This document shows positions 6,690-52,556 of a DNA stretch of 64,000 nt, one piece after another. A model generated the notes under the pieces. The model saw only the letters and a program-made list of their open reading frames with translations, had not been told where the DNA came from and searched no databases. A program made the position numbers and the translations under genes. Origin of the DNA: a virus (Duplodnaviria > Caudoviricetes); IMG/VR virus record IMGVR_UViG_3300025838_000022, positions 58,798-122,797 of that record. The stretch is one strand, 5' to 3'. Within the stretch, counting starts at the first letter, position 1. Every line of letters begins with the position of its first letter.

Positions 6690-7127
6690 ATGGCAAATTC
6701 CATCGACTTAAGCTGGCAACGAGAAGCAGCTTGTAAAAACACCTCATTAGTCAACTATGAGTCGTATTACCCATCCCGTGGCAGAACCTCCGAAGGCAAA
6801 GCAAAAGCTTTGTGCAACACGTGCCCAGTACAAAAAGCTTGCTTAGACCACGCTCTAAAATATGAAGACTATGGCTTCTGGGGTGGTGTAAGTGCTAAGG
6901 GCAGAGAGCGTATGCGTAAGGAATTGGGCATTGAATTGATTGATATTAATTACGAATCAATTATCAAATACGCAAAAGAACGCGAAAAAATTCAAGAAGC
7001 TATACAAAATAACAAGATGAAGCGTGGCCCCAAAAGGAAGCCAAAAAACGTTGACAACAGCTTGACATTTGATCCAACAGCTGAATATAATGACATTGAT
7101 TTAACCATTGATGAACTGGAGTATTAA
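6690..7127 (+). CDS. whiB: WhiB-family Fe-S transcription factor
   Basis: W..EAAC...C..CPV...C..HAL....GFWGG: four Cys plus the G[FV]WGG turn. Confidence 0.92.
   Translation: MANSIDLSWQREAACKNTSLVNYESYYPSRGRTSEGKAKALCNTCPVQKACLDHALKYEDYGFWGGVSAKGRERMRKELGIELIDINYESIIKYAKEREKIQEAIQNNKMKRGPKRKPKNVDNSLTFDPTAEYNDIDLTIDELEY
7062..7091 (+). promoter_or_regulatory. SigA-type promoter for the glycosylation cassette
   Basis: TTGACA-18 nt-TATAAT inside the 3' end of whiB, upstream of the GT4 gene. Confidence 0.65.
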
Positions 7128-26384: not shown

Positions 26385-29300
26385 ATGACAGACAATCTTG
26401 TTCACCTTCACGTTCACACCGAGCACTCATTTTTGGACGGTCTCTCTACCGTCGATCAATTGGTCAACCGAGTGGTGGACCTTGGCCAAAGTGCAGTGGC
26501 CATTACCGACCACGGCGAATGCTCTGGTCACCTGCGCCTACAACACGCTGCCGATAAGTCTGGCATTAAACCCCTGTTCGGTATGGAGGGATACTTCACC
26601 GAGAACCGTTTCGACAAGAGCGGTAAGAAGGGTGAGAACTACGACCACATGACCATTGTGGCCATGAATAACCAAGGCTTGGAAAACCTCTGGGCGTTGT
26701 CAAGCTTGGCGTACATTGAAGGTAGCTACTACGGCAATGCTCGCTTTGACTGGGAGCTCCTTGAGAAGTACAACGAAGGGCTTATCGTTACCGGTGGCTG
26801 TATGGGTGGATGCATTGGCAAACACCTTAAGGATGATGGCAACTACTCCAAGGCTGTAGAGCGCATTGGTCGTTATCAGGCCATCTTTGGTGACCGCTTC
26901 CACCTTGAACTGCACACCTACCTCGACCCTGAGAGCAACGAATGGAACATGCGAGTGGCAGAGGCTGCCCTCGACTTCAGCGTGCCCATGATTACTGTGA
27001 GCGATGCACACTACGCAGCACCCGACCAGTGGTATGCGCACGAGCTGATGACTGCTGTGCAAATGGGTAAAACCATGAACGACCCCACACGGTTTAGTTA
27101 TGGCCCTAACCAGTTGTGCTTGTTCTCAGAAGAAGAGACACGTAGCCGTTTGAGCTACTTGCCAGAAAGCATCGTTGATCAGGCAATTAAGCGTACGTCA
27201 GAGATTGCTGACATGTGCGATGCTCGAGTTCCTGGCGCACGCAAGATGCCAGTGTTTTACAACACCGCCAAGATGGACGAGCGCAAGCTACGTGAGACTG
27301 CCGAGGAAGGTTTTAATCGAAAGATCGTTGGCCAAGTGGCCGATGATATTCTACAAAAATACCGTGACCGTCTTGACTACGAGCTAGATGTTGTTATCAC
27401 CCGTGGATTCCCGGGGTACTTCTTAACCGTACAAGACATTATTAATTGGAGTAAAAATGAAAACTTTTTGGTTGGTCCTAGCCGCGGTTCAGTCGGCGGA
27501 AGCCTTCTTGCTTACGTTATGGACATCACTGAAGTCGATCCGATCCCCTCTGGCCTTATTTTTGAGCGGTTTCTTAATCCTGAGCGCGTCTCTATGCCTG
27601 ATATTGACATTGATATGCCCAAGCTAGAGCGGGGCATGGTACGTGATTATCTTGAACGAAAGTATGGACGCTACAACATTGCCTCGATTGGCACGCTTAA
27701 CACACTAGGACCAAAGCAATCAATCAAAGATGCTTGTCGTGGCCTGGGCATTAACAAGGATGACACGCAAAAGATGTGTGACATCATTGACGACGACTGG
27801 AACATCAAGAACCGTGGTGCAACATGGGATGATGTCATGGATAAGTATGGTCCTGACTACTCACCATGGATTGCACGTTATCCAAAGCTGTTTGAGAACC
27901 TGCCAGAGTTTGTTAACCACATTCGCCACGCTAGTGCTCACGCTGCAGGTATCGTTGTCAGCAAAGACTCGCTTATTGGTGCCATGCCACTGCGTTACAA
28001 CCCAAGCAACGATGATATCCGTACGCAATTCGACATGGGTGACGTTGATGAGCTTGGTTTTGTAAAGATTGACTTGCTTGGTCTTCGTACGCTGAGTACG
28101 CTCATGGCCGCATTAGACCTAATCAAGGAGAACAACGGTGGCACCTTACCTTTCCGTCATTTCTATGAATGGAATTACGAATGGTCAAAGTATTACGACG
28201 ACCCAGCTGTCTGGGACTCAATCGGCACCGGTCACAATATTGGGCTATTTCAAATCGAGACAGGTTCCCTTAGAAGTTTGGTTAAGCGGTTCCAACCACG
28301 AAGCATAGAAGACCTGTGCACCATGATTGCCATCTACCGCCCTGGCATCACCAGAGCTGTGGACTCCGAGACGGGGTTGAACCTGCTCGAGATGTACATG
28401 CAGAAGCGTGAGGGAAAGCGCCCCGTCAAATTTAAACACAGTAAGCTAAGTGCAATACTTGGTGTATCGTACGGAAGCTTTGTTTACCAGGAACAGATCA
28501 TGGAAACGTGCGTAGCACTAGCTGGTTACACCATTGTGGAGACTGACCGTGTGCGCAAAGCTGTGGCAAAGTCTAATTATGAAGACATGGTGGAAGAGGC
28601 CGAGATCTTCGTAAAGAAGTGCGTGGAGAACGGTGTCGACGAGGACACAGCAAAGTCTATTTTTGATGACATGCGTGCATTCGGTATGTATGGGTTCAAC
28701 AAGAGCCATGGTTATGGCTACTCCATGCTTGCCTACTGGACTGCTTGGATGAAGCACTACTACCCACGTGAATACATGACTGCGTTGTTCCGCACCAACC
28801 CATCTGACAACGTGGTGTACACACGGGAAGCTCGACGTATGGGTATCCAGGTGCTTGGACCAGACATTAACGAAAGTGGTAGCAATTTTACCTTGACAAA
28901 GAACGGTAGTATCCGTTATGGTCTGAACAGTGTTAAGTATGTAGCTAACGCTGCAGCCGAGATACAAAAGCTTGGGCCGTTCAAGAGCATGGAAGACTTC
29001 ATCGCTCGTGTTCCTACCCGTCGAATTAACAAGCGTGTTATTATCTCTATGATTCGTGCTGGTGTATTTGACAGTATTTGTGGTGACCCCAGGACTGCGC
29101 TGTATGAATATTGTAAAGACCGTAAAGAGTTCAAAAAGAAAATAAATGAACAATGCCCTGAAGACTGCCCTTATTGTGCTGGACGCGATAACTTTTTTGA
29201 TTGTTATGCGACCAACGAAGAAAAGATTGACGATAGAGGAGCAAATGAACAAGAGCTCCTTGGCACTATGGTTAGTATCGATCCCCTGGCTGATTATATT

Positions 29301-31749: not shown

Positions 31750-31906
31750 GAACAGTGAAACAAGAAACAGCTAACGTCATGGTCCGCATCGTGATTGAAG
31801 CTATGCAAGAAGTTGGCGTTACAGACGAGCAACTCGAAAAGATGAGTGAGATTGTGCCAAGAAAATTTAAAGAAGCAACCCTTATTATGAAAGCAGGTAT
31901 GTTGTA

Positions 31907-32107
31907 ATGCAAGTTGGAGACACTGTAGTAGACATTAGATCAGTTGGCACCATCGTTGGGGTGTCTAAAGCTGGTAATCCCGTTGTTGAATGGGAGCAAG
32001 GCACCATTGATTACAGGGATTTCGAAGAAGTCACACCAGAACTATTGGTTCTTGTGAACATGCCAAAGCCGAATGAGGAGCTTGACCCATCAAAGGACAC
32101 AGAATGA
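31907..32107 (+). CDS. Hypothetical protein (SH3/KOW-like)
   Basis: 'MQVGDTV....GTIV..' beta-rich small ORF. Confidence 0.45.
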   Translation: MQVGDTVVDIRSVGTIVGVSKAGNPVVEWEQGTIDYRDFEEVTPELLVLVNMPKPNEELDPSKDTE

Positions 32108-32448
32108 TTGAGCACGAAGAAGAATACGAAGGCGTAACCATTTACGTTGATGCTAACGATAGCTGGCCCAGCAACCTTGCTGGAGTTCGTATCCTAGAGC
32201 AGACAGCTATGCGAATGGAAGACGGTCGAGTTAAGATTATTGGTGACCCAGTGTGGAGTCTTGAGGCCAATGACTGATTACGTACCCAAAAAGTCTACGT
32301 GTAAAAACTGCTTTAGAAAATTTGCCAACACAAACGAAATTATGCAGGGTGCTGATGGCACATGGGTACACACATTTATTAACGGTCAGCACTACCCTAC
32401 CAAGTGCAACCTATGGGAAAATTGGGTAGCAGAACCTATGGAGGAATC

Positions 32449-32808
32449 ATGAGCAGTATCGGTAAAGGCAAAGAATCTTTGCTATCAAAATATGAAAAGC
32501 CGGTTGAGCCTACAGAGTTTGAAAAGGTGCTGCAAGAGATCCATGATCTCCACACCAAGAAACAGTCTGATTACGGTCGTCCAGAAGAGGGCGACCCCTT
32601 TGCTAACGTACGTGCCAGCGAAGACTTTGGCATCCCTGGATGGTTGGGCGCCGTAATCAGAGCAAACGATAAGGTTCGCCGCATCCAGAAGTATGCTCGT
32701 GGCGGTACCATGGTAAATGAATCAGTAGAAGATTCATTACTTGACGCAGCTGTTTATTTTATGATAGCCTTATGCCTGTTCAGGGAGCACAATGGAATCA
32801 ACACGTGA
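32449..32808 (+). CDS. DUF1599 / nucleotide-modification-associated domain 1 protein
   Basis: 'KKQSDYG...DPFAN...IRANDKVRRI...NESVEDSLLDAAVY'. Confidence 0.78.
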   Translation: MSSIGKGKESLLSKYEKPVEPTEFEKVLQEIHDLHTKKQSDYGRPEEGDPFANVRASEDFGIPGWLGAVIRANDKVRRIQKYARGGTMVNESVEDSLLDAAVYFMIALCLFREHNGINT

Positions 32809-42089: not shown

Positions 42090-42590
42090 ATGACTACTAA
42101 TGCAAACGATCTGCCCGGTATTAGACCAGAGGATGTAAAGCAGACACCTGAACAACAGGCACAGATTGCTGCGTTCCTTGCTGATCAGAAGCGTGAAGAA
42201 GAAGAGCTCGGCAAGGAACAACCGATTGAGCTTATGGAATCAGAGCTTATGGACGTATGGCATCTGCTCCAGGAACTACAGTACAAATATGGCAACCGTC
42301 CTGGCACCTTTGCTAACCTCACGTCGCTTCGCAACGAGGCAGATGAAAAGTTTGCTGCGCTTGGATTCCAGGTTGTAGTCGACTGGGTTATGCCTGGCCT
42401 GATGCAGATTAATGGGCAGAACCGCCCAGAGCCACCAACTATTACCATTGTTGGCCGACTCGACGGGTCAGAGTACAACCCTGAGCAGAACCGTTACGAG
42501 ACGGGTGCAGGTGTTGCTGACGCATACTATGATGCTAAGCGTCAGTCTCTTGGCATGAGCAACAAGAAGCTCATTCTTCCTGGGAAATAA
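42090..42590 (+). CDS. Hypothetical protein
   Basis: 166-aa ORF with phage-like codon usage. Confidence 0.65.
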   Translation: MTTNANDLPGIRPEDVKQTPEQQAQIAAFLADQKREEEELGKEQPIELMESELMDVWHLLQELQYKYGNRPGTFANLTSLRNEADEKFAALGFQVVVDWVMPGLMQINGQNRPEPPTITIVGRLDGSEYNPEQNRYETGAGVADAYYDAKRQSLGMSNKKLILPGK

Positions 42591-42592
42591 TC

Positions 42593-43753
42593 ATGTCTAT
42601 TGTTGATGATGGTGAAGACTTTTACAATTTGTTTTTAGCATCATCACGCATTGACGACCACGTTCTTGACTATGAAGACGAAGATCACCCAAACGTTTTA
42701 GCTTTCAAAGATGCTAAAGACAAAGATCATCAGTTAACGTTTGATGCAAGCGATGGTACGCATGAGTTTATCCCACGATCTTTTGGCGGTTATGGCAATA
42801 GCAGAAAAAAGATGGTCACATCCTGCAATGGATATTGTTTAACACACGAAACTTATGAAGGCCATTCACCTGCAAAAGTTGACAATATCAGAGATGTTAA
42901 ACCAAAAACATTAAAAGACGTTCCTCTTTCTCGTTTTGAACAAAGCATGAAAGACTACTACGATAGTAAATATTTTTTTACGCCTAATAGCCAAGTTACG
43001 CCAAGCAAACGAGACTATGATGATGCTCGATCTGCTGACATTGATTCGCAAACGTTTGATAACGCTGCTTATAAACGTGTGATGATGCTTGGTGCCTCAA
43101 AAGATAACGTTGTTGAAGCTTTGAAGAAACACGTTCCTATTGAAGACTATGAAAAAGCTTTGCTTGGCAATGGCTATGATCATGAAAAAGCTATGAAAGA
43201 TACTGCTTACCGTGATAAAAAAGAAGACGGTACGCCAGATATTAGCCCCTATCACAGCCATTATGCAAAAATGGTTAAGGTAAATAAAAAGATTACTGAG
43301 AGCGCGCCAGTTGTTCTAGATAAAAATAGAATGTTTTCAGACAGCGATTACAACAACGAAGTGCAAAAGCTTTTTAAGCATCACCTTGCTAGGTTAAACA
43401 GTGGCAATGACACTATGGACCCACAAGATAGAAAATGGATGCTAAGCGAATGCACAAAACTAAACCCAGATTTAAAAATGGACTACGATGGTCCAATGGC
43501 TGATCCTATCTTAGATGCGAACAGCTACAACAGGATTGTTAAAAATCTTATGGCTCATCATTCTTTGAAGAACTTTCACACCACTAGCATTGGTGGGCAA
43601 ATCATTAACAATAGAAAAATGAATGCTGTCCTAAATCTTGCTAGCCACAGGGACTATGCGTTTGAATTTAGTGGCATCGATGACAAGCATGAAAAAGAAA
43701 GAATTGGGTTGAACCCGCCGCAAATGCAGATCAGATATGAAGAGGGCAAATAA
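42593..43753 (+). CDS. Hypothetical late protein
   Basis: 386-aa D/K-rich ORF. Confidence 0.6.
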   Translation: MSIVDDGEDFYNLFLASSRIDDHVLDYEDEDHPNVLAFKDAKDKDHQLTFDASDGTHEFIPRSFGGYGNSRKKMVTSCNGYCLTHETYEGHSPAKVDNIRDVKPKTLKDVPLSRFEQSMKDYYDSKYFFTPNSQVTPSKRDYDDARSADIDSQTFDNAAYKRVMMLGASKDNVVEALKKHVPIEDYEKALLGNGYDHEKAMKDTAYRDKKEDGTPDISPYHSHYAKMVKVNKKITESAPVVLDKNRMFSDSDYNNEVQKLFKHHLARLNSGNDTMDPQDRKWMLSECTKLNPDLKMDYDGPMADPILDANSYNRIVKNLMAHHSLKNFHTTSIGGQIINNRKMNAVLNLASHRDYAFEFSGIDDKHEKERIGLNPPQMQIRYEEGK

Positions 43754-44514
43754 TGAGTGAGTTCGCATCAGGCTGGGACGACAGCGAGTTCGATAGACCA
43801 GAGGGTGAGCGCATTCACCGTGTTGTTCCGCCGCTAATGGTTGGATTCGACCTTGAAACAACTGGCTTGGACGTTAAGCATGACCAGCCAATCTCTTATG
43901 GTTTTACAGAGTACCGCGACGGTAAGCAGACGGGCGTCAAGCATCACTTCATTGTCAAGCCAACCGTGCCAATCCATGAGAAAGCATCAGCTGTAAACGG
44001 TTGGACAGCGGAAAAGCTAGAGAGAAGCCACAACGGCGAAATCGTTGAGGACTTTAACGGTAACAAGTATGCTCCTGCGCTAGACCCAAGAGTCGGCGTT
44101 CAAAAGGCAGCGAGCATCTTGGCAGATTACCAGAAGCAGGGCGCAGTTATTGTCGGTGCTAACCACCACAAGTTTGACTTCCCTATGCTCTCTAATACAT
44201 ATAAAACGCTCAACGCATTCCCTATCGAGACAACTGGCCTGGTGCCACCACGTGTAACCGATGAGAAAAAGCCAAAGGTTATTTACGACCCAACGGCTAT
44301 TAAAACAATTGACGTTATTGAGCACGATAGAAGACTAGACCCAGAGCAGTACCCTTCTAATCACCCATCGTACCGTAGTCGATCACTAGAAAACCTTACA
44401 AAATACTACGGCGTTGAGCCAAGTACCCACATTGCTAGCGATGACGCCCGCGCATCAGTCGACGTGTACCTTAGGCAGGTTGAGAGAAATAAAAAAGGGA
44501 TTATGAACCTATGA
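43753..44514 (+). CDS. DEDDh (DnaQ-like) 3'-5' exonuclease
   Basis: ExoI 'FDLETTG', ExoII 'N..KFD', ExoIII 'HIASDD'. Confidence 0.88.
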   Translation: MSEFASGWDDSEFDRPEGERIHRVVPPLMVGFDLETTGLDVKHDQPISYGFTEYRDGKQTGVKHHFIVKPTVPIHEKASAVNGWTAEKLERSHNGEIVEDFNGNKYAPALDPRVGVQKAASILADYQKQGAVIVGANHHKFDFPMLSNTYKTLNAFPIETTGLVPPRVTDEKKPKVIYDPTAIKTIDVIEHDRRLDPEQYPSNHPSYRSRSLENLTKYYGVEPSTHIASDDARASVDVYLRQVERNKKGIMNL

Positions 44515-44792
44515 GCGATTGGAACCTCCGTTACGCCACTGTTGGTGAGAGTGGCATCGATTATGCACAGGCTGTCCCATGCACAAAGGATAGTAAATGC
44601 GGTTTTTGCAACCATTTAAACAAGGTTGAGGCTGCTAATAAGGATGAAAACGGCAGAGCTGTTGATAAAGATCACGCCAGCATCATTAAAATGATCAAAA
44701 AGTTGCATAAAGATGGTGTATACGTAAATAATGAGCCATATTTTACACCAATTTTAACTAAGGCTGCCAGCAAAAGGAGCAAAAATGCGTAA
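44511..44792 (+). CDS. Small protein with WNLRYA leader
   Basis: MSDWNLRYA-; CxxxxxCxxC. Confidence 0.65.
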   Translation: MSDWNLRYATVGESGIDYAQAVPCTKDSKCGFCNHLNKVEAANKDENGRAVDKDHASIIKMIKKLHKDGVYVNNEPYFTPILTKAASKRSKNA

Positions 44793-45066
44793 GGTATCTA
44801 GAGCAGATGAGTCATACGATGTTAACTTCCGCACAACATTGAAAGATGATGTTGTTGAAACTGTAGTTAAGACAGCTGGCGTGTGGCCTAATCAAAGAGA
44901 TTACGATGTTCACAAAGAGCACCTCAATGAACTGTTGCAACATAACATCGATGGTGTCAAGTGGCACACAAAACAAGGTGACCACCGTGCTGCGCAAAAG
45001 CATGCTGCCGTTGTTGGTGCTATCACTGGCACGCTTGCTGCGATTGATCAGCTTGAGAAACAATAA
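44785..45066 (+). CDS. Hypothetical protein
   Basis: Coupled ORF; internal 'VKTAG'. Confidence 0.6.
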   Translation: MRKVSRADESYDVNFRTTLKDDVVETVVKTAGVWPNQRDYDVHKEHLNELLQHNIDGVKWHTKQGDHRAAQKHAAVVGAITGTLAAIDQLEKQ

Positions 45067-45239
45067 TGTCTTGGTTAGAGCGTTACGCTAGCGATAAGCC
45101 ATGGGACGAAGAGGATCCCGATCACGGTGAGCACAGCAAGCTAACACCAAAACAAAAAGCAAAAGCAAAGGCTCGTGCAAAAGCGCATGGTCGTCACTAC
45201 CCAAACTGGGTGGACAATGCTTGGGCCTCTAAACAATAG
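45066..45239 (+). CDS. 57-aa protein with WLERYA leader (below the ORF-track cutoff)
   Basis: ATG 45066 to TAG 45239: MSWLERYASDKPW...KAKAKARAKAHGRHYPNWVDNAWASKQ. Confidence 0.7.
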   Translation: MSWLERYASDKPWDEEDPDHGEHSKLTPKQKAKAKARAKAHGRHYPNWVDNAWASKQ

Positions 45240-45248
45240 GAGATAATT

Positions 45249-45800
45249 ATGAATTGGAACCTCCGTTACGCTAAGGACAAGGAAGAAAGCAGCAAGGGAT
45301 TCAAGCCACCGGCAGGTGTGCAATCAGCTGCTCGCCATGCTCTTAAGCTTATTGAAGATGGTAAAGCTGGTGATGGTTTTACTAGCGTTGGCCGTGGTCG
45401 TGCCCACCAACTTGCTAACGGTGAGACGCTTAGCCTAGCTACAGTTAAGCGTATGCACTCATACTTTTCACGTCACCGTGTTGACAAGAAGGGTAAGGAC
45501 TGGAACAACGACAGTCCCGGTAAGGTTGCATGGCTTGCATGGGGCGGTGACGCTGGTGCATCATGGGCTGCAAGCATTGTAAAGAAGCATGGCGGTGGTG
45601 ACAACAAGAAGGAAGCTGCCAGGTACAGAGATGAGAAATGCTTAGAATGCCGAGAAAAAAATCGGCAAAAAGACAGCCCCTTTTGTGGCCAAGAATGCCA
45701 GAGCGAATATACATTTCACAGAGAGTTTGGACCAGAAGGGTGGCACGAAACTCGTTACCCTGGACCACCAGAACCTCGTAGAGAACCAGAAGAACTCTAA
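45249..45800 (+). CDS. Head-associated protein with WNLRYA leader
   Basis: Domain 'PP.GV..AA..AL...G.T.VG..RA.QLA.GE.LS..TVKRM.SYFSRH..DK...AW.AWGGDAG..WA', which I recall from phage head-morphogenesis proteins. Confidence 0.65.
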   Translation: MNWNLRYAKDKEESSKGFKPPAGVQSAARHALKLIEDGKAGDGFTSVGRGRAHQLANGETLSLATVKRMHSYFSRHRVDKKGKDWNNDSPGKVAWLAWGGDAGASWAASIVKKHGGGDNKKEAARYRDEKCLECREKNRQKDSPFCGQECQSEYTFHREFGPEGWHETRYPGPPEPRREPEEL

Positions 45801-46045
45801 TGAACTTCAACGAGCGTTACGCTAAAGAAAAAAATAAAAAGAAGGATCACTACCAGTATATCAAGAAGCGTGGTGACCAATGGGTCATCATCCAAAAGGG
45901 TACCGGTAAGGTGCTCTCTCACCACGACACGCGTGAGAAGGCTATTGCTGCATTCCATGCAATGATGGCCTCTAAGCATGGTAACATTAATTTAGACCCA
46001 AGTGACTGGCGCAACGATTACATGGATCTCGACGCAGACTGGTGA
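45800..46045 (+). CDS. Small basic protein with FNERYA leader
   Basis: 'IKKRGDQWVI..K.TGKVL..H.T.EKA'. Confidence 0.65.
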   Translation: MNFNERYAKEKNKKKDHYQYIKKRGDQWVIIQKGTGKVLSHHDTREKAIAAFHAMMASKHGNINLDPSDWRNDYMDLDADW

Positions 46046-46048
46046 TAC

Positions 46049-48046
46049 ATGCCAAAGATTACAAAGAATAGTAATGCTAACATCCTGCGTGGACAGCAAG
46101 ACTTCTTTGAGATAGCCAAGAAAAGCCTCAAAGAAAAGGCTGACCTACCTGATATTGTCACGTTTGCTGAGCACTCGAGCTTCCTGGGTGGTAGCAAGCT
46201 TTTCCCACGTCAGCGAACGCTTCTTAAACTTATCATGCTTGAGACAGAGAATCTCACAGACTATGACTACGAAGTCATTGATAAGTGGACAAAGAATTTT
46301 GATTTCAACGGTGATAGAATAGGCGTAAGCCCGGACATCCTTGACCGGATCGAATACTTGAAAGAAAATGGTTACAAGCATTTCCGTGAAGTGGTAAACA
46401 TCACGGGTCGTCGTGGTGGTAAGGGCCACATCGGCGGAATCCTGGGTGCATATAAGAACTGGGAACTGCTTATGCTTGACGACCCCCAGTATTACTACAA
46501 CATTGACAAGTCTAAGGACCTTTACCTTTTCTGCGTTGCTACGAACATTGAACAGGCTAAGAAATATCAGTTTGCTGACCTTGCGAACACGATCATCAAT
46601 GCTCCATGCTTCCAGCCATATATCGCTGACGCTAAGGAACACTTCCTAGCTTTGCGTACGCCTGCTGACATCAGACGCATCGCTGCATTTGAATCGAGAG
46701 ACATCAGACCTAGCCGTTTGATCGCTAGTATCCGTAACATGGCTGTGACGAGTAACTCTAAAGCCTCGCGTGGTGCTGCTGCCTTCGGCGTTATGTTTGA
46801 CGAGTTTGCACACATGTTGGTTGGTACGGGTGGTGCAAGAACGTCTGACGAAGTATACAACGCTATTACTCCTGCATTGGACCAGATGGGTAAAGATGGT
46901 TTGATTTACGTGCCGACGTCGCCATTTACCAAGGTGGGTAAGGCATACAGTCTATACGAGGCTGCGCTAGAAAAAGATGAAGATGGCACTCCAAAGTATC
47001 CAAACATGATGATGGCACAGCTACCATCGTGGGGGCCATATGAAGACTGGGATGACCCAAGATTTGTATCGTTCTACCGCCGTGCACCTCAGAGCTACGA
47101 CGAACAGATGAAATCCATGGAAAAGCGTGAGCCTGACACGTTTAGGGTTGAGCGTTTGAGCCAATGGGCTGAAGTTACCAACGCCTACCTCAATCCAAAA
47201 ATGGTTGAGCGTATGTTTGATCCGTTTATTGATGCTAATGGTGAGCTTCGAGAGCTTGAGCTACAGCACGAAGGCAAATTTAGTATTGTTTACACGGGCC
47301 ACTGCGACCCATCAAAATCTGGTGCTAACACAGCAGCCATGATTGGTCACGTAGAAAAGATCGCTGACCCTGAAGATGGTGAAGAGTGGTACCATGTTAT
47401 TATTGACTGGATCAAGGTATGGGACCCAGAAAATTACCCTGATAATCAGATCGACTACGAAGAAATTGAAGAAGAATTGGTAGATACGTTGTGCAATTTC
47501 CGTACAACTAAAGTATTCTCGTTTGACCAGTACGGTGCGTTTGTTACATTGCCACGTTTGAAAAAGCGTTTGCAACAGGTTAGACCTGCCCACCAAGTTA
47601 AAGTGCGTGAGGAAAAATTTACCAAAGAAAGTAACATGCGCCGTGCTGAGCGGTTCAAATCTGCATTGGGTATGAATTGGGTACACTCGTTCCGTGATGT
47701 GTATGGCCCTAATGGTAGCAGTTTGCTGGAACAAGAGCTAAAGTTCTTGCAAGAGGTCAATGGTCGAGTTAAGAAGCAAGATATTGGACCTATCCGCACA
47801 GAAGACTTAGCAGACTGCCTCATGGTTATTGTTGATTCTCTGCTCGAAGATAACTTCGTTAAGCTAGAGATGCGAGATAAACTTGGTCAGACACAGTTGT
47901 TGTCTGGTTCTCAGGGTGGTTATCACACCCGTAATGCAAGCGATATGCAACCTGTCTCTGCTAGAGATAGGCTACGTGTGTTTGGTGCTCAACGTGCACA
48001 AAGAGATTACGGGGGTATGTCCCGTGGAAGGTCAGGTAGACGATGA
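46049..48046 (+). CDS. terL: Terminase large subunit
   Basis: Walker A GRRGGKG, Walker B VMFDEFAH, 'TSP' coupling motif, nuclease acids (HCDPS, FDQ, EDLAD). Confidence 0.9.
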   Translation: MPKITKNSNANILRGQQDFFEIAKKSLKEKADLPDIVTFAEHSSFLGGSKLFPRQRTLLKLIMLETENLTDYDYEVIDKWTKNFDFNGDRIGVSPDILDRIEYLKENGYKHFREVVNITGRRGGKGHIGGILGAYKNWELLMLDDPQYYYNIDKSKDLYLFCVATNIEQAKKYQFADLANTIINAPCFQPYIADAKEHFLALRTPADIRRIAAFESRDIRPSRLIASIRNMAVTSNSKASRGAAAFGVMFDEFAHMLVGTGGARTSDEVYNAITPALDQMGKDGLIYVPTSPFTKVGKAYSLYEAALEKDEDGTPKYPNMMMAQLPSWGPYEDWDDPRFVSFYRRAPQSYDEQMKSMEKREPDTFRVERLSQWAEVTNAYLNPKMVERMFDPFIDANGELRELELQHEGKFSIVYTGHCDPSKSGANTAAMIGHVEKIADPEDGEEWYHVIIDWIKVWDPENYPDNQIDYEEIEEELVDTLCNFRTTKVFSFDQYGAFVTLPRLKKRLQQVRPAHQVKVREEKFTKESNMRRAERFKSALGMNWVHSFRDVYGPNGSSLLEQELKFLQEVNGRVKKQDIGPIRTEDLADCLMVIVDSLLEDNFVKLEMRDKLGQTQLLSGSQGGYHTRNASDMQPVSARDRLRVFGAQRAQRDYGGMSRGRSGRR

Positions 48047-48453
48047 ATTGGAACACTCGCTACGCTAAAGATGATGCAAAGAAACGCATCATGAATGAAT
48101 TAAAACAAAAATATCCAGGTAAAAGAGTAATCGATGACGCGGGTAGCTATTTTGCCTTGTTAGAAGAAGCTAGTGATCACCCTGAATATGATAGAGCTAC
48201 TCAGGTTGTGACAGCACCTACCCCTCCGCACAAGCACGAACACACTACACACATTTATAAAGCAATTGATACTCCTTTTAATGTTCATGTAGATAAAAAA
48301 GTTGTTAGAGTTAATCCTGGTGAAAGTTTTACTGTTAAACCCAATACTGTTCACTGGTTGTCTAACGACCCTGGGACAGAATGCTGGTTGGAAGTAATGT
48401 CAAGCCCGGGCATTCCTGATAAGAACCCAGACGTTGTTAAGGTTAAGCAATGA
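48043..48453 (+). CDS. Cupin-domain protein with WNTRYA leader
   Basis: 'PPHKHEHTTHIY' and 'PGESFTVKPNTVHW' cupin motifs. Confidence 0.75.
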   Translation: MNWNTRYAKDDAKKRIMNELKQKYPGKRVIDDAGSYFALLEEASDHPEYDRATQVVTAPTPPHKHEHTTHIYKAIDTPFNVHVDKKVVRVNPGESFTVKPNTVHWLSNDPGTECWLEVMSSPGIPDKNPDVVKVKQ

Positions 48454-48773
48454 ACTGGAACTTACGTTACGCTAGTGAAAAAACAGCCGGAGAAATTTGG
48501 GATCTGTTTAAAGATGTAGGCGTTGGTTTTAGAGATGCATTCTCGCCCAACCGCGATGCTTTTGGCAATCTAAGAAAAAACCCTTCACAATGCAAAAAAT
48601 GTGATAAAGATTTCTTTGATGCAAAAAAGCCTAAGCACAATATGTCAGACAGAGAATACTGGACTCTTTTTCAAACAGGTCAACATCACCTAATACCGAT
48701 GCAGCAACGCAGTGATAAGCATGACGATCTTTGTGTAGATTGCGATGAAAAAAGCAGTTGGATGGACAAATAA
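48450..48773 (+). CDS. Small Zn-binding protein with WNLRYA leader
   Basis: MNWNLRYASEKTAG; CKKC...CVDC. Confidence 0.65.
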   Translation: MNWNLRYASEKTAGEIWDLFKDVGVGFRDAFSPNRDAFGNLRKNPSQCKKCDKDFFDAKKPKHNMSDREYWTLFQTGQHHLIPMQQRSDKHDDLCVDCDEKSSWMDK

Positions 48774-52304: not shown

Positions 52305-52556
52305 TTAGACATACTTCATTCCTTTCTCTCGCTTGCGTTTAGATATGCGTCGTTCTTTGGGAGCCTGACCCCCATAGATACCATCCTTAATGCTGTTATC
52401 TAATGCATAGTCAAGACATTGTTTCTTAATTATACAAGCATTGCATATTTCCCTAACTGCTTTCATGTTTGCAATAGCAGTAGGACCTTTCTCGATAAAG
52501 AACATGTTTACATCTTTACCTCGACAGTTGGCTTGCTCACGCCATTCTTCACTCAT
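52305..52556 (-). CDS. whiB: Second WhiB-family transcription factor
   Basis: WREQANC...MFF...CNAC...C..YAL...GIYGG...ER. Confidence 0.9.
   Translation of the reverse strand: MSEEWREQANCRGKDVNMFFIEKGPTAIANMKAVREICNACIIKKQCLDYALDNSIKDGIYGGQAPKERRISKRKREKGMKYV

What the first reader, a model, noticed from the sequence alone, without database searches (positions are those of the whole stretch)
44511..48773. Six small genes around the terminase share an N-terminal (W/F)xxRYA leader: candidate capsid-targeting/cargo-loading system
Seen: 44511 MSDWNLRYA, 45066 MSWLERYA (57 aa, missing from the ORF track), 45249 MNWNLRYA, 45800 MNFNERYA, 48043 MNWNTRYA and 48450 MNWNLRYA. The bodies after the motif are unrelated: Zn-binding peptides, a head-associated domain, a basic beta-hairpin domain and a cupin. 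Codons vary synonymously (CTC/TTA, CGT/CGC, AAT/AAC), so the peptide rather than the DNA appears conserved. Known: T4 internal proteins IPI-III share a short N-terminal capsid-targeting sequence that the prohead protease removes. Inference: this is an analogous but sequence-distinct address tag, probably cut after [R/K]-x-A, that loads diverse cargo into the head for injection (anti-defence or host takeover). It could be usable for protein packaging.
Basis: partly seen in the sequence, partly recalled or inferred. Interest (0 to 1): 0.85.

Follow-up and report, generated by a model that had tools for sequence, protein, structure and literature searches.

The report
Shared head-loading tag on phage proteins
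An uncultured freshwater phage of actinobacteria starts nearly every small gene beside its terminase with the same 8-residue peptide (M-x-W/F-N-x-R-Y-A), which most likely marks unrelated proteins for loading into the capsid and trimming by the head protease, although no cut or packaging has been shown.

Summary
[WFY]xxRYA occurs six times in all six frames of the window. Each copy sits directly after an ATG, at the stated coordinates. Conservation is at the peptide level: Arg is encoded by CGT 22, AGA 21, CGC 5, AGG 2 and CGA 1 across relatives.

In about 20 related IMG/VR phages the tag heads at least 30 unrelated protein families. It also lies inside fused polyproteins, at domain junctions.

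The tag ends in [R/K]-x-A. That motif bounds the variable N-terminal piece of the major capsid protein from this phage to mycobacteriophage Bxz1 relatives. N-terminal [RK][YFT]A is enriched in head-side genes (13/39) and terminase-flank genes (7/8), and absent from tail genes (0/28). The only recognisable protease has the T4 gp21/herpesvirus-assemblin fold. One cargo domain is fused to prohead protease or portal in other phages.

Best reading (about 0.55): a T4-CTS-like head-loading and cleavage tag, sequence-distinct and cutting after Ala. Cleavage, packaging and injection are all inferred.

The scan has noted comparable leader sets before on other DNA, mostly T4-like phages, and an unchecked first-reader note exists for this genome's head region. 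New variant of a known kind.

The parts
44511..44792 (+). Tagged ORF 1 (93 aa, Cys-rich). The tag MSDWNLRYA is 44511-44537.
   Evidence: Orthologs in relatives keep the tag (MDWNLRYA, MTEWNIRYA).
44785..45066 (+). ORF with the second leader type (MRKVSRADESYDVNFRTT). Relatives read MRKVSRAEE..LNFRTA, and often this is the first unit of a polyprotein.
45066..45239 (+). Tagged ORF 2 (57 aa, acidic then basic, phrog_34011). The tag MSWLERYA is 45066-45089.
45249..45800 (+). Tagged ORF 3 (183 aa). The tag MNWNLRYA is 45249-45272. It is followed by a conserved helical domain (residues about 16-115, phrog_2859) and a C-terminal Cys cluster.
   Evidence: In other phages the domain is fused to prohead protease, XkdF, portal, MuF or zincin.
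45800..46045 (+). Tagged ORF 4 (81 aa, DUF2188). The tag MNFNERYA is 45800-45823. It has the C-terminal tail DPSDWRNDYMDLDADW.
46049..48046 (+). Large terminase subunit. It carries no tag.
48043..48453 (+). Tagged ORF 5 (136 aa, Cupin_2). The tag MNWNTRYA is 48043-48066.
   Evidence: An ortholog has MVNWSIRYA (L022).
48450..48773 (+). Tagged ORF 6 (107 aa, two CxxC pairs). The tag MNWNLRYA is 48450-48473, followed by SEKTA.
43753..44514 (+). DnaQ-like 3'-5' exonuclease. It has no tag here, but its homologs in relatives start MFNAKYA, MFNSK.. or MYNSRYA.

Best explanation
The peptide M-x-(W/F)-(N/S)-x-R-Y-A, usually followed by K/S-E/D-K, is a lineage-specific protein tag. It ends in the motif [R/K]-x-A, which I infer to be the cutting site (after Ala) of the phage's own head-maturation protease. 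That protease has the T4 gp21/herpesvirus-assemblin fold and lies at genome 28429-29088, outside the window. Proteins that carry the tag are proposed to enter the assembling prohead, possibly by docking to the protease or the core, and to be trimmed there. This is how T4 handles its internal proteins through the capsid targeting sequence.

In relatives the same units are encoded as fused polyproteins with the tag at every domain junction. Cutting at the tag would release the same products as the separate genes of this phage.

Shown: peptide-level conservation, modularity, the distribution over gene classes, the internal copies, the protease fold, and fusion of one cargo domain to head proteins elsewhere. 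Inferred: cleavage after Ala, which protease does it, loading into the head, and delivery into the host.
For: (1) Peptide, not nucleic acid. In 55 unique tagged starts, P3 Arg is encoded by CGT 22, AGA 21, CGC 5, AGG 2, CGA 1. Tyr is TAC 33/TAT 18 and Ala is GCT 33/GCA 10/GCC 7. 54% of same-residue codon pairs differ. The DNA flanks do not align and there is no Rfam hit.
(2) Modularity. At least 30 unrelated body clusters carry the tag in relatives. They include a cupin, an amidase (PF01425), a DnaQ-like exonuclease, DUF2188 and a ParB-C-like protein.
(3) Gene-class bias. [RK][YFT]A occurs within the first 30 residues in 13/39 head-side genes (2.5 expected) and 7/8 terminase-flank genes. It occurs in 0/28 tail genes, 3/56 replication/glycosylation genes and 1/40 early-strand genes.
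(4) The MCP N-terminal piece varies in length (11-20 aa) and sequence but always ends R-[TVI]-A before the conserved [KV][KRG]SDDY. Finch has LQRVA|KASDEY and the Bxz1-like phage Pleione has GLGRFA|KASDDY. Some MCPs start MPFTKSGARVA, like the tagged gene at genome 602, MPFTKDKWSYRYA.
(5) The scaffold-like 464-aa protein has conserved sites VMRFA|S (31/32 sequences) and QKVA|S (32/32) in an otherwise very variable alignment.
(6) Internal copies. Polyproteins P0001-P0015 have SSF[DN][DE]RYAxEK at the junction about 16-22 residues before the conserved phrog_2859 domain, and at earlier junctions in the longer ones. DUF2188 is preceded by the tag at a fixed spacing whether the tag is N-terminal or internal, in some cases with a relic Met (KEAS-MNWNDRYAGKDK), and by ..SSRTA| in the tag-free phage G004.
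(7) The protease is phrog_18299. Its model has pLDDT 81.6, with Z 10.1 (rmsd 2.4 A, 114 aligned) to VZV protease and Z 9.8 (rmsd 2.6 A, 126 aligned) to T4 gp21. His82 and Ser140 are invariant. No radical-SAM gene, late-gene zincin or MuF domain was found in the genome as held.
(8) The domain of the 45249 ORF is fused to prohead protease, XkdF, portal, MuF or zincin in other phages.
(9) The tag lies outside the fold: residues 1-10 have pLDDT 54, the domain over 90.
Against: There is no direct evidence for cleavage, virion presence or injection. The sites in MCP and portal share only R/K-x-A, which carries little information. In orthologs the portal site is loose (RTA, KSA, RKA, KTS, RRE). Some tags have Ser or Ile at P1 (RYS, RYI), which is odd for a strictly Ala-specific cutter. 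The tag sits on a DnaQ-like exonuclease at the end of the replication module and on an amidase, which are not obvious capsid cargo. The tag is more conserved (M-N-W-N upstream, K-E-K downstream) than a cutting site alone needs, so it may be primarily a binding motif that is never removed. The genome as held is about 82% complete, so another protease or partner could be missing.
Confidence: 0.55

Rival explanations
1. The peptide is a docking motif that is not cleaved. Each unit carries a short linear motif that binds one common partner (portal, scaffold, packaged DNA, terminase or a host protein). The motif is kept in front of every domain whether the domains are encoded separately or fused.
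For: The conserved stretch is longer than a cutting site needs (M-N-W-N..R-Y-A-K-E-K). Its spacing to the following domain is constant. Variants with Ser or Ile at P1 persist. A weak helix is predicted over residues 4-13.
Against: The last three residues coincide with the R-x-A that bounds the variable N-terminal piece of the MCP over a wide phylogenetic range, and with conserved sites in the scaffold-like protein. In G004 the same domain is preceded only by ..RTA, so the minimal conserved element looks like a cutting site.
Confidence: 0.2
2. The peptide is a polyprotein-processing signal that has nothing to do with the capsid. Another protease, of the host or of the phage but not recognised here, cuts at the motif in the cytoplasm. 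N-terminal copies are left over from fission of polyprotein genes.
For: Internal copies lie at junctions. A relic Met sits inside some fused forms. The tag occurs on an exonuclease and an amidase. Distant homologs are polyvalent proteins with their own zincin domains.
Against: No zincin or other protease was found in this genome apart from the head protease. N-terminal tags are under strong purifying selection in at least 30 families, which relics would not be. The motif is enriched in head-side genes and absent from tail, replication and early genes. One cargo domain is fused to head proteins elsewhere.
Confidence: 0.1
3. The peptide is the recognition sequence of a modifying enzyme, like a RiPP leader. 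One enzyme binds the shared peptide and modifies many substrates.
For: An earlier finding of this scan on other DNA (e1-127136) ended this way for a different shared leader. The bodies are diverse and many are small and Cys-rich.
Against: There is no radical-SAM gene in the genome and no enzyme gene is consistently next to the tagged genes in the loci examined. The bodies are folded domains such as a cupin, an amidase and a helical domain.
Confidence: 0.05
4. The conserved element is in the nucleic acid: a box overlapping the start codons that serves translational coupling, regulation or recombination of gene cassettes.
For: Five of six starts overlap the preceding stop. CGTTACGCT is over-represented in the window (22 matches with up to 1 mismatch, 9 expected).
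Against: Arg alternates between the CGN and AGR codon families and Ser between TCN and AGY, and 54% of same-residue codon pairs differ. Conserved internal copies lie far from any start. Nothing is conserved upstream of the ATG. There is no Rfam match.
Confidence: 0.02

Closest known systems
T4 capsid targeting sequence (CTS, MKTYQEFIAE) of internal proteins IPI-III and Alt, removed by prohead protease gp21 (my knowledge; reviewed in PMC9026906 and PMC9958956)
   Same: A short (8-10 aa) N-terminal leader is shared by unrelated small proteins. It ends in the presumed cutting motif of a gp21-fold head protease. The genes sit in variable hot-spots of a late region.
   Different: There is no sequence similarity. 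P1 would be Ala, not Glu. The phage lineage is related to cluster C mycobacteriophages, E3 and Finch, not to T4. The tag is also used internally in polyproteins. Nothing has been shown experimentally.
Propeptides of head and ejection proteins of giant phages (phiKZ, 201phi2-1, SPN3US), cut by the prohead protease at a short motif (PMC5694885, PMC7411985, PMC10052503)
   Same: Many head proteins, including ejection proteins, are trimmed at one short consensus by a gp21-like protease.
   Different: Those propeptides vary in length and sequence apart from the three-residue motif ending in Glu. Here the whole 8-11-residue tag is conserved.
Herpesvirus assemblin maturation and release sites (cut after Ala, before Ser; my knowledge)
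   Same: The protease fold is the same (Z 10.1 to VZV protease). P1 would be Ala and P1' is often Ser or Lys.
   Different: This is an analogy only. The specificity of the phage enzyme is inferred from conserved motifs.
Polyvalent proteins of phages and conjugative elements (Iyer et al. 2017, PMC5512222)
   Same: Homologs of the 45249 domain occur in multidomain proteins with zincin and MuF domains, encoded among late genes and predicted to be packaged and injected. Relatives of this phage encode 2-5-unit polyproteins.
   Different: In this window every unit is a separate gene. The junction tag, and the equivalence of split and fused forms, did not turn up in the passages of that paper that my term search returned; I did not read it in full.
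P1 Dar antirestriction proteins, packaged through N-terminal determinants and processed (PMC9024508; my knowledge)
   Same: Accessory proteins are loaded into the head in an assembly-linked manner.
   Different: No shared consensus tag is known for the Dar proteins.
Encapsulin cargo-loading peptides (my knowledge)
   Same: A short peptide addresses diverse cargo to the interior of an HK97-fold shell.
   Different: Those peptides are usually C-terminal and not cleaved, and they bind the shell protein itself.

Membership tests
T4-type capsid targeting sequence system | One short N-terminal leader shared by otherwise unrelated proteins | tested here: met
   Six ORFs in the window and at least 30 body clusters in relatives.
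T4-type capsid targeting sequence system | The leader ends in the cutting motif of the phage's prohead protease | tested here: inconclusive
   R/K-x-A bounds the MCP N-terminal piece and recurs in the scaffold-like protein. No cleavage data exist.
T4-type capsid targeting sequence system | The phage encodes a prohead protease of the gp21/assemblin fold | tested here: met
   phrog_18299, E 7e-26. Z 9.8 to T4 gp21 (5jbl) and Z 10.1 to VZV protease.
T4-type capsid targeting sequence system | Sequence relationship to the T4 CTS, or a motif ending (L/I)-x-E | tested here: not met
   The consensus is M-N-W/F-N/S-x-R-Y-A. No Glu at P1.
T4-type capsid targeting sequence system | Tagged proteins are present in virions with the leader removed | not testable with these tools
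   The phage is uncultured.
Polyvalent proteins (PMC5512222) | Two to fifteen unrelated domains in one polypeptide | tested here: not met
   The window ORFs are single units. Relatives do have 2-5-unit fusions.
Polyvalent proteins (PMC5512222) | Encoded among virion or late genes, with links to MuF, portal or peptidase domains | tested here: met
   The genes flank the terminase. Homologs of the 45249 domain are fused to MuF (PF04233), zincin, prohead protease and portal. There is no MuF domain in this genome.
RiPP-like leader with a co-encoded maturase | A modifying enzyme (for example radical SAM) encoded with the tagged genes | tested here: not met
   No PF04055 match in the genome. No constant enzyme neighbour.

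The most novel reading that the evidence does not exclude
The tag is a portable combined address and cutting code of an actinophage lineage. One 8-11-residue peptide both recruits a protein to the prohead and specifies cutting after Ala by an assemblin-fold protease. This would let the phage encode its injected arsenal interchangeably as separate genes or as beads-on-a-string polyproteins. A weaker form of the same code (R/K-x-A) would operate in cultured cluster C mycobacteriophages and in Rhodococcus and Gordonia phages, where it could be tested and used to package foreign proteins.
Probability: 0.35. Interest if true: 0.8.

Novelty: new variant of a known kind. Interest (0 to 1): 0.62.

Why it matters
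If the reading holds, T4-style protein loading extends to a quite different phage group, relatives of the large actinobacteriophages. It would have a new tag and an Ala-type cutting site like that of herpesviruses. It would also link two ideas so far treated apart: capsid-targeting leaders on small proteins, and polyvalent proteins delivered with the DNA. The same units appear split with N-terminal tags or fused with internal tags. It would give a simple sequence rule for listing the probable injected proteins of these abundant freshwater phages: a cupin, an amidase, an exonuclease, Zn-ribbon peptides and a widespread helical domain of unknown fold. It would also offer a candidate tag for packaging proteins into actinophage capsids.

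Tried and rejected
(1) Host Prp/L27-type leader, as on the phage 80alpha capsid and scaffold proteins (LNLQFFA|). This was my first idea, from memory. I dropped it because the two WhiB genes and the terminase and MCP relatives point to an actinobacterial host. To my knowledge that system is not found there, and the motif differs.
(2) Co-folding the protease with a tagged protein.
(3) A co-occurrence test for a partner gene, using the tag-free relative G004. That genome is too divergent: most accessory genes are absent, so the test is uninformative.
(4) Literature search for N-terminal processing of cluster C, Myrna or E3 capsid proteins. The papers found give no cleavage data.
(5) PDB fold search for the conserved domain of the 45249 ORF. 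No match.
(6) Pfam and PHROG searches on the large head-side proteins (genome 602-22382). No hits.
(7) The site KYA|S inside the protease itself lies in a Cys cluster, and I did not count it as a cutting site.
A narrower pattern was used instead.


Full report
OBSERVATION

The six ORFs are real and start exactly as described. A six-frame scan finds [WFY]..RYA six times in the 64-kb window. All six copies lie directly behind an ATG, at 44511, 45066, 45249, 45800, 48043 and 48450. Plain RYA occurs 21 times.

The window is the right-hand 64 kb of a 122.8-kb virus record. That record holds two more N-terminal copies, at genome 602 (MPFTKDKWSYRYA) and 4865 (MEWSRRYA).

The 57-aa ORF belongs to phrog_34011. 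The 183-aa ORF holds a phrog_2859 domain. The 81-aa ORF is DUF2188, and the 136-aa ORF is a cupin. The bodies fall into separate clusters.

A seventh flanking gene (44785-45066) carries another leader. In relatives it reads MRKVSRAEE..LNFRTA; here it is degenerate. Only the terminase itself is untagged.

PEPTIDE OR NUCLEIC ACID

The terminase picked up 21 related IMG/VR contigs from freshwater metagenomes, with TerL 65-97% identical. They carry the same leader on many different ORFs.

Over 55 unique tagged starts, the P3 Arg is encoded by CGT 22, AGA 21, CGC 5, AGG 2 and CGA 1. Tyr is TAC 33/TAT 18. Ala is GCT 33/GCA 10/GCC 7. Ser uses both TCN and AGT. In total, 54% of codon pairs that encode the same residue differ.

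Nothing upstream of the ATG is conserved, and no Rfam family matches. The conservation is therefore in the peptide. The consensus is M-N-(W>F)-(N>S)-x-R-Y-A-(K/S)-(E/D)-K.

A scan of all IMG/VR for ATGAAYTGGAAYNNNCGNTAYGC found only 20 stretches. Judging by their metagenome ids, nearly all come from the same set of freshwater metagenomes as this lineage. The tag is lineage-specific.

WHAT THE PHAGE IS

The terminase, portal, MCP, sheath and other virion genes are related (about 30-65% identity) to those of Rhodococcus phages Finch and E3, Gordonia phages and cluster C mycobacteriophages. Two WhiB genes indicate an actinobacterial host.

By comparison with Finch and PHROGs:
- the portal is genome 25012-27354;
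- the head-maturation protease is 28429-29088;
- the MCP is 31752-32768.

WHERE THE TAG OCCURS

At least 30 unrelated body families carry the tag in the sampled relatives. They include an amidase (PF01425), the DnaQ-like exonuclease that is untagged in this genome, and a ParB-C-like protein.

The tagged genes lie in two hot-spots: around the terminase, and upstream of the portal.

In this genome I counted the last three residues of the tag, generalised to [RK][YFT]A, within the first 30 residues of each protein:
- head-side genes: 13 of 39 (2.5 expected);
- terminase-flank genes: 7 of 8;
- tail genes: 0 of 28;
- replication/glycosylation genes: 3 of 56;
- genes on the early strand: 1 of 40.

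An unchecked first-reader note on the neighbouring window of this genome (e1-5914750) listed similar leaders in the head region. This count partly tests that note.

LINK TO HEAD MATURATION

The N-terminal piece of the MCP varies in length (11-20 residues) and in sequence among about 80 relatives. It always ends R-[TVI]-A in front of the conserved [KV][KRG]SDDY. Finch has LQRVA|KASDEY. The Bxz1-like phage Pleione has GLGRFA|KASDDY, and its portal has NRLRKA|G.

Some MCPs of the lineage begin MPFTKSGARVA. This resembles the tagged gene at genome 602 (MPFTKDKWSYRYA).

The very variable 464-aa scaffold-like protein keeps VMRFA|S in 31 of 32 sequences and QKVA|S in 32 of 32.

The protease model (pLDDT 81.6) matches VZV protease (Z 10.1, rmsd 2.4 A, 114 residues aligned) and T4 gp21 (Z 9.8, rmsd 2.6 A, 126 residues aligned). 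His82 and Ser140 are invariant. To my knowledge, herpesvirus enzymes of this fold cut after Ala.

No other protease, radical-SAM enzyme or MuF domain was found in the genome as held, which is about 82% complete.

INTERNAL COPIES

In relatives the units that are separate genes here are often fused. Proteins P0001-P0015 (up to 704 aa, some seen on many contigs) carry SSF[DN][DE]RYAxEK at the junction that lies about 16-22 residues before the conserved phrog_2859 domain, and the longer ones carry it at earlier junctions too. The spacing is the same as behind the N-terminal tag.

DUF2188 is preceded by the tag at a fixed distance, whether the tag is N-terminal or internal. Some fused forms keep a relic Met (KEAS-MNWNDRYAGKDK). 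Others have only ..[RK]TA| or ..ESA|KK.

In the tag-free relative G004 (complete genome with terminal repeats, MCP 92% identical), DUF2188 sits inside a 477-aa protein directly behind ..HTSSRTA|.

A gene start with a tag and an internal junction with a tag are thus interchangeable. This is what one expects if an endoprotease cuts at the motif and releases the same units. It also rules out any explanation tied to translation initiation.

IS THE CARGO IN THE HEAD?

The domain of the 45249 ORF is about 60% identical over about 100 residues to parts of hundreds of longer phage proteins. Among them are polyvalent proteins with zincin and MuF domains.

In the BFVD library the same fold is fused to proteins named prohead protease, XkdF, portal (a Halorubrum virus, and Mu gp29-like), Dps and ParB. 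In other phages this domain is therefore covalently tied to components of the prohead. Here it stands alone behind the tag.

In its model the tag (residues 1-10, pLDDT 54) lies outside the folded domain (pLDDT over 90). The domain has no match in the PDB.

Polyvalent proteins encoded among late genes have been proposed to be packaged and injected (PMC5512222).

MECHANISM PROPOSED

Tagged proteins or polyproteins are made late. They join the assembling prohead core through the tag, perhaps by docking to the protease. They are cut after the Ala of R-Y-A when the protease becomes active. They then stay in the head with the DNA and enter the host with it.

The tag is much more conserved on cargo than the bare R-x-A on MCP and portal. 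This fits an address function on top of a cutting site, because structural proteins reach the prohead by their own assembly. This whole paragraph is inference.

WEAK POINTS

- No cut, no virion protein and no injection has been shown.
- R/K-x-A alone carries little information, and the portal site is loose in orthologs.
- Some tags have Ser or Ile at P1.
- An exonuclease and an amidase are unexpected cargo.

The main rival is a docking motif that is never cleaved. A capsid-independent processing signal and an enzyme-recognition leader are less likely. A nucleic-acid element is nearly excluded.

COMPARISON AND NOVELTY

The closest known system is the T4 capsid targeting sequence with gp21. Next come the propeptides of phiKZ/SPN3US-type phages (PMC5694885, PMC7411985, PMC10052503).

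This case differs in four ways: the sequence of the tag, the presumed P1 residue (Ala, as for herpesvirus assemblins), the phage lineage, and the use of the tag at internal junctions of polyproteins.

The scan has reported comparable leader sets on other DNA, mostly T4-like phages, two of them with an Ala/Ser-cutting motif. The general idea is therefore not new. I class this as a new variant of a known kind, with moderately high interest. The R-x-A part of the code can be tested in cultured mycobacteriophages.

Noticed in passing
window 45995-46042 (C-terminus of the 45800 ORF): The tail DPSDWRNDYMDLDADW recurs at the C-terminus of the homologous DUF2188-bearing proteins of relatives and of several database polyproteins (P0006, P0011, P0012, P0014 end ..W[RN].(E/D)Y..L(D/N)(A/S)DW). 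In this genome it closes the last ORF before the terminase. It may be a second short motif, for example a contact with terminase or portal.
   Followed up: partly
window 42090-42590 (+): A conserved 166-aa protein (MTTNANDLPGIRPEDVK..) has no Pfam or PHROG match. In the tag-free relatives L015 and L016 its homolog lies directly upstream of the terminase. In tagged phages the tagged genes sit between the two. It is a candidate small terminase, and the tagged genes look like insertions into the TerS-TerL junction.
   Followed up: partly
L001 8387-8911 (genome coordinates, outside the window): A ferritin-like/Dps protein (PF00210) is encoded among the head-side genes, with a conserved N-terminal extension (MEEWNGFRVV..). 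In BFVD a Dps is fused to the same helical domain as the 45249 ORF. It may be a packaged Dps, reminiscent of encapsulin cargo.
   Followed up: partly
window 45294-45590 (domain of the 45249 ORF): This helical domain of about 100 residues is very widespread in phages (481 longer homologs, about 60% identity). It has no Pfam family and no PDB fold match. It is fused to prohead protease, XkdF, portal, MuF, zincin, Dps or ParB in other phages.
   Followed up: partly
proteins P0018, P0019, P0020, P0024 (database homologs): Polyvalent proteins with zincin domains repeat the stretch AKAYKRKYATREEAARAAANARWGN at their domain junctions. Its K-R-K-Y-A core resembles the R-Y-A of the tag, so it may be a related junction signal in other phages.
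   Followed up: no
L019 659-3394 and L024 10001-12739: The terminase of two relatives is 911-912 aa instead of 665 aa, with an in-frame insertion of about 247 residues. Several cluster C mycobacteriophage terminases also match in two pieces. This is likely an intein or a similar insertion.
   Followed up: no
window 6690-7127 (+) and 52305-52556 (-): Two WhiB-family genes (PF02467, E 4e-17 and 1.5e-18) point to an actinobacterial host.
   Followed up: yes
window 43753-44514: The DnaQ-like exonuclease has lost the leader that its homologs carry in relatives. Compare MFNAKYANSEEFDNSIFERPEG in L004 with MSEFASGWDDSEFDRPEG here.
   Followed up: partly
L001 14700-16745 and L001 13840-14667 (genome coordinates): Large Cys-rich proteins with many CxxC pairs lie upstream of the portal and have FNS- or FDAKFA-type N-termini. 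The G004 homolog contains a DUF2188 unit. These look like polyprotein or polyvalent head proteins without any family match.
   Followed up: partly
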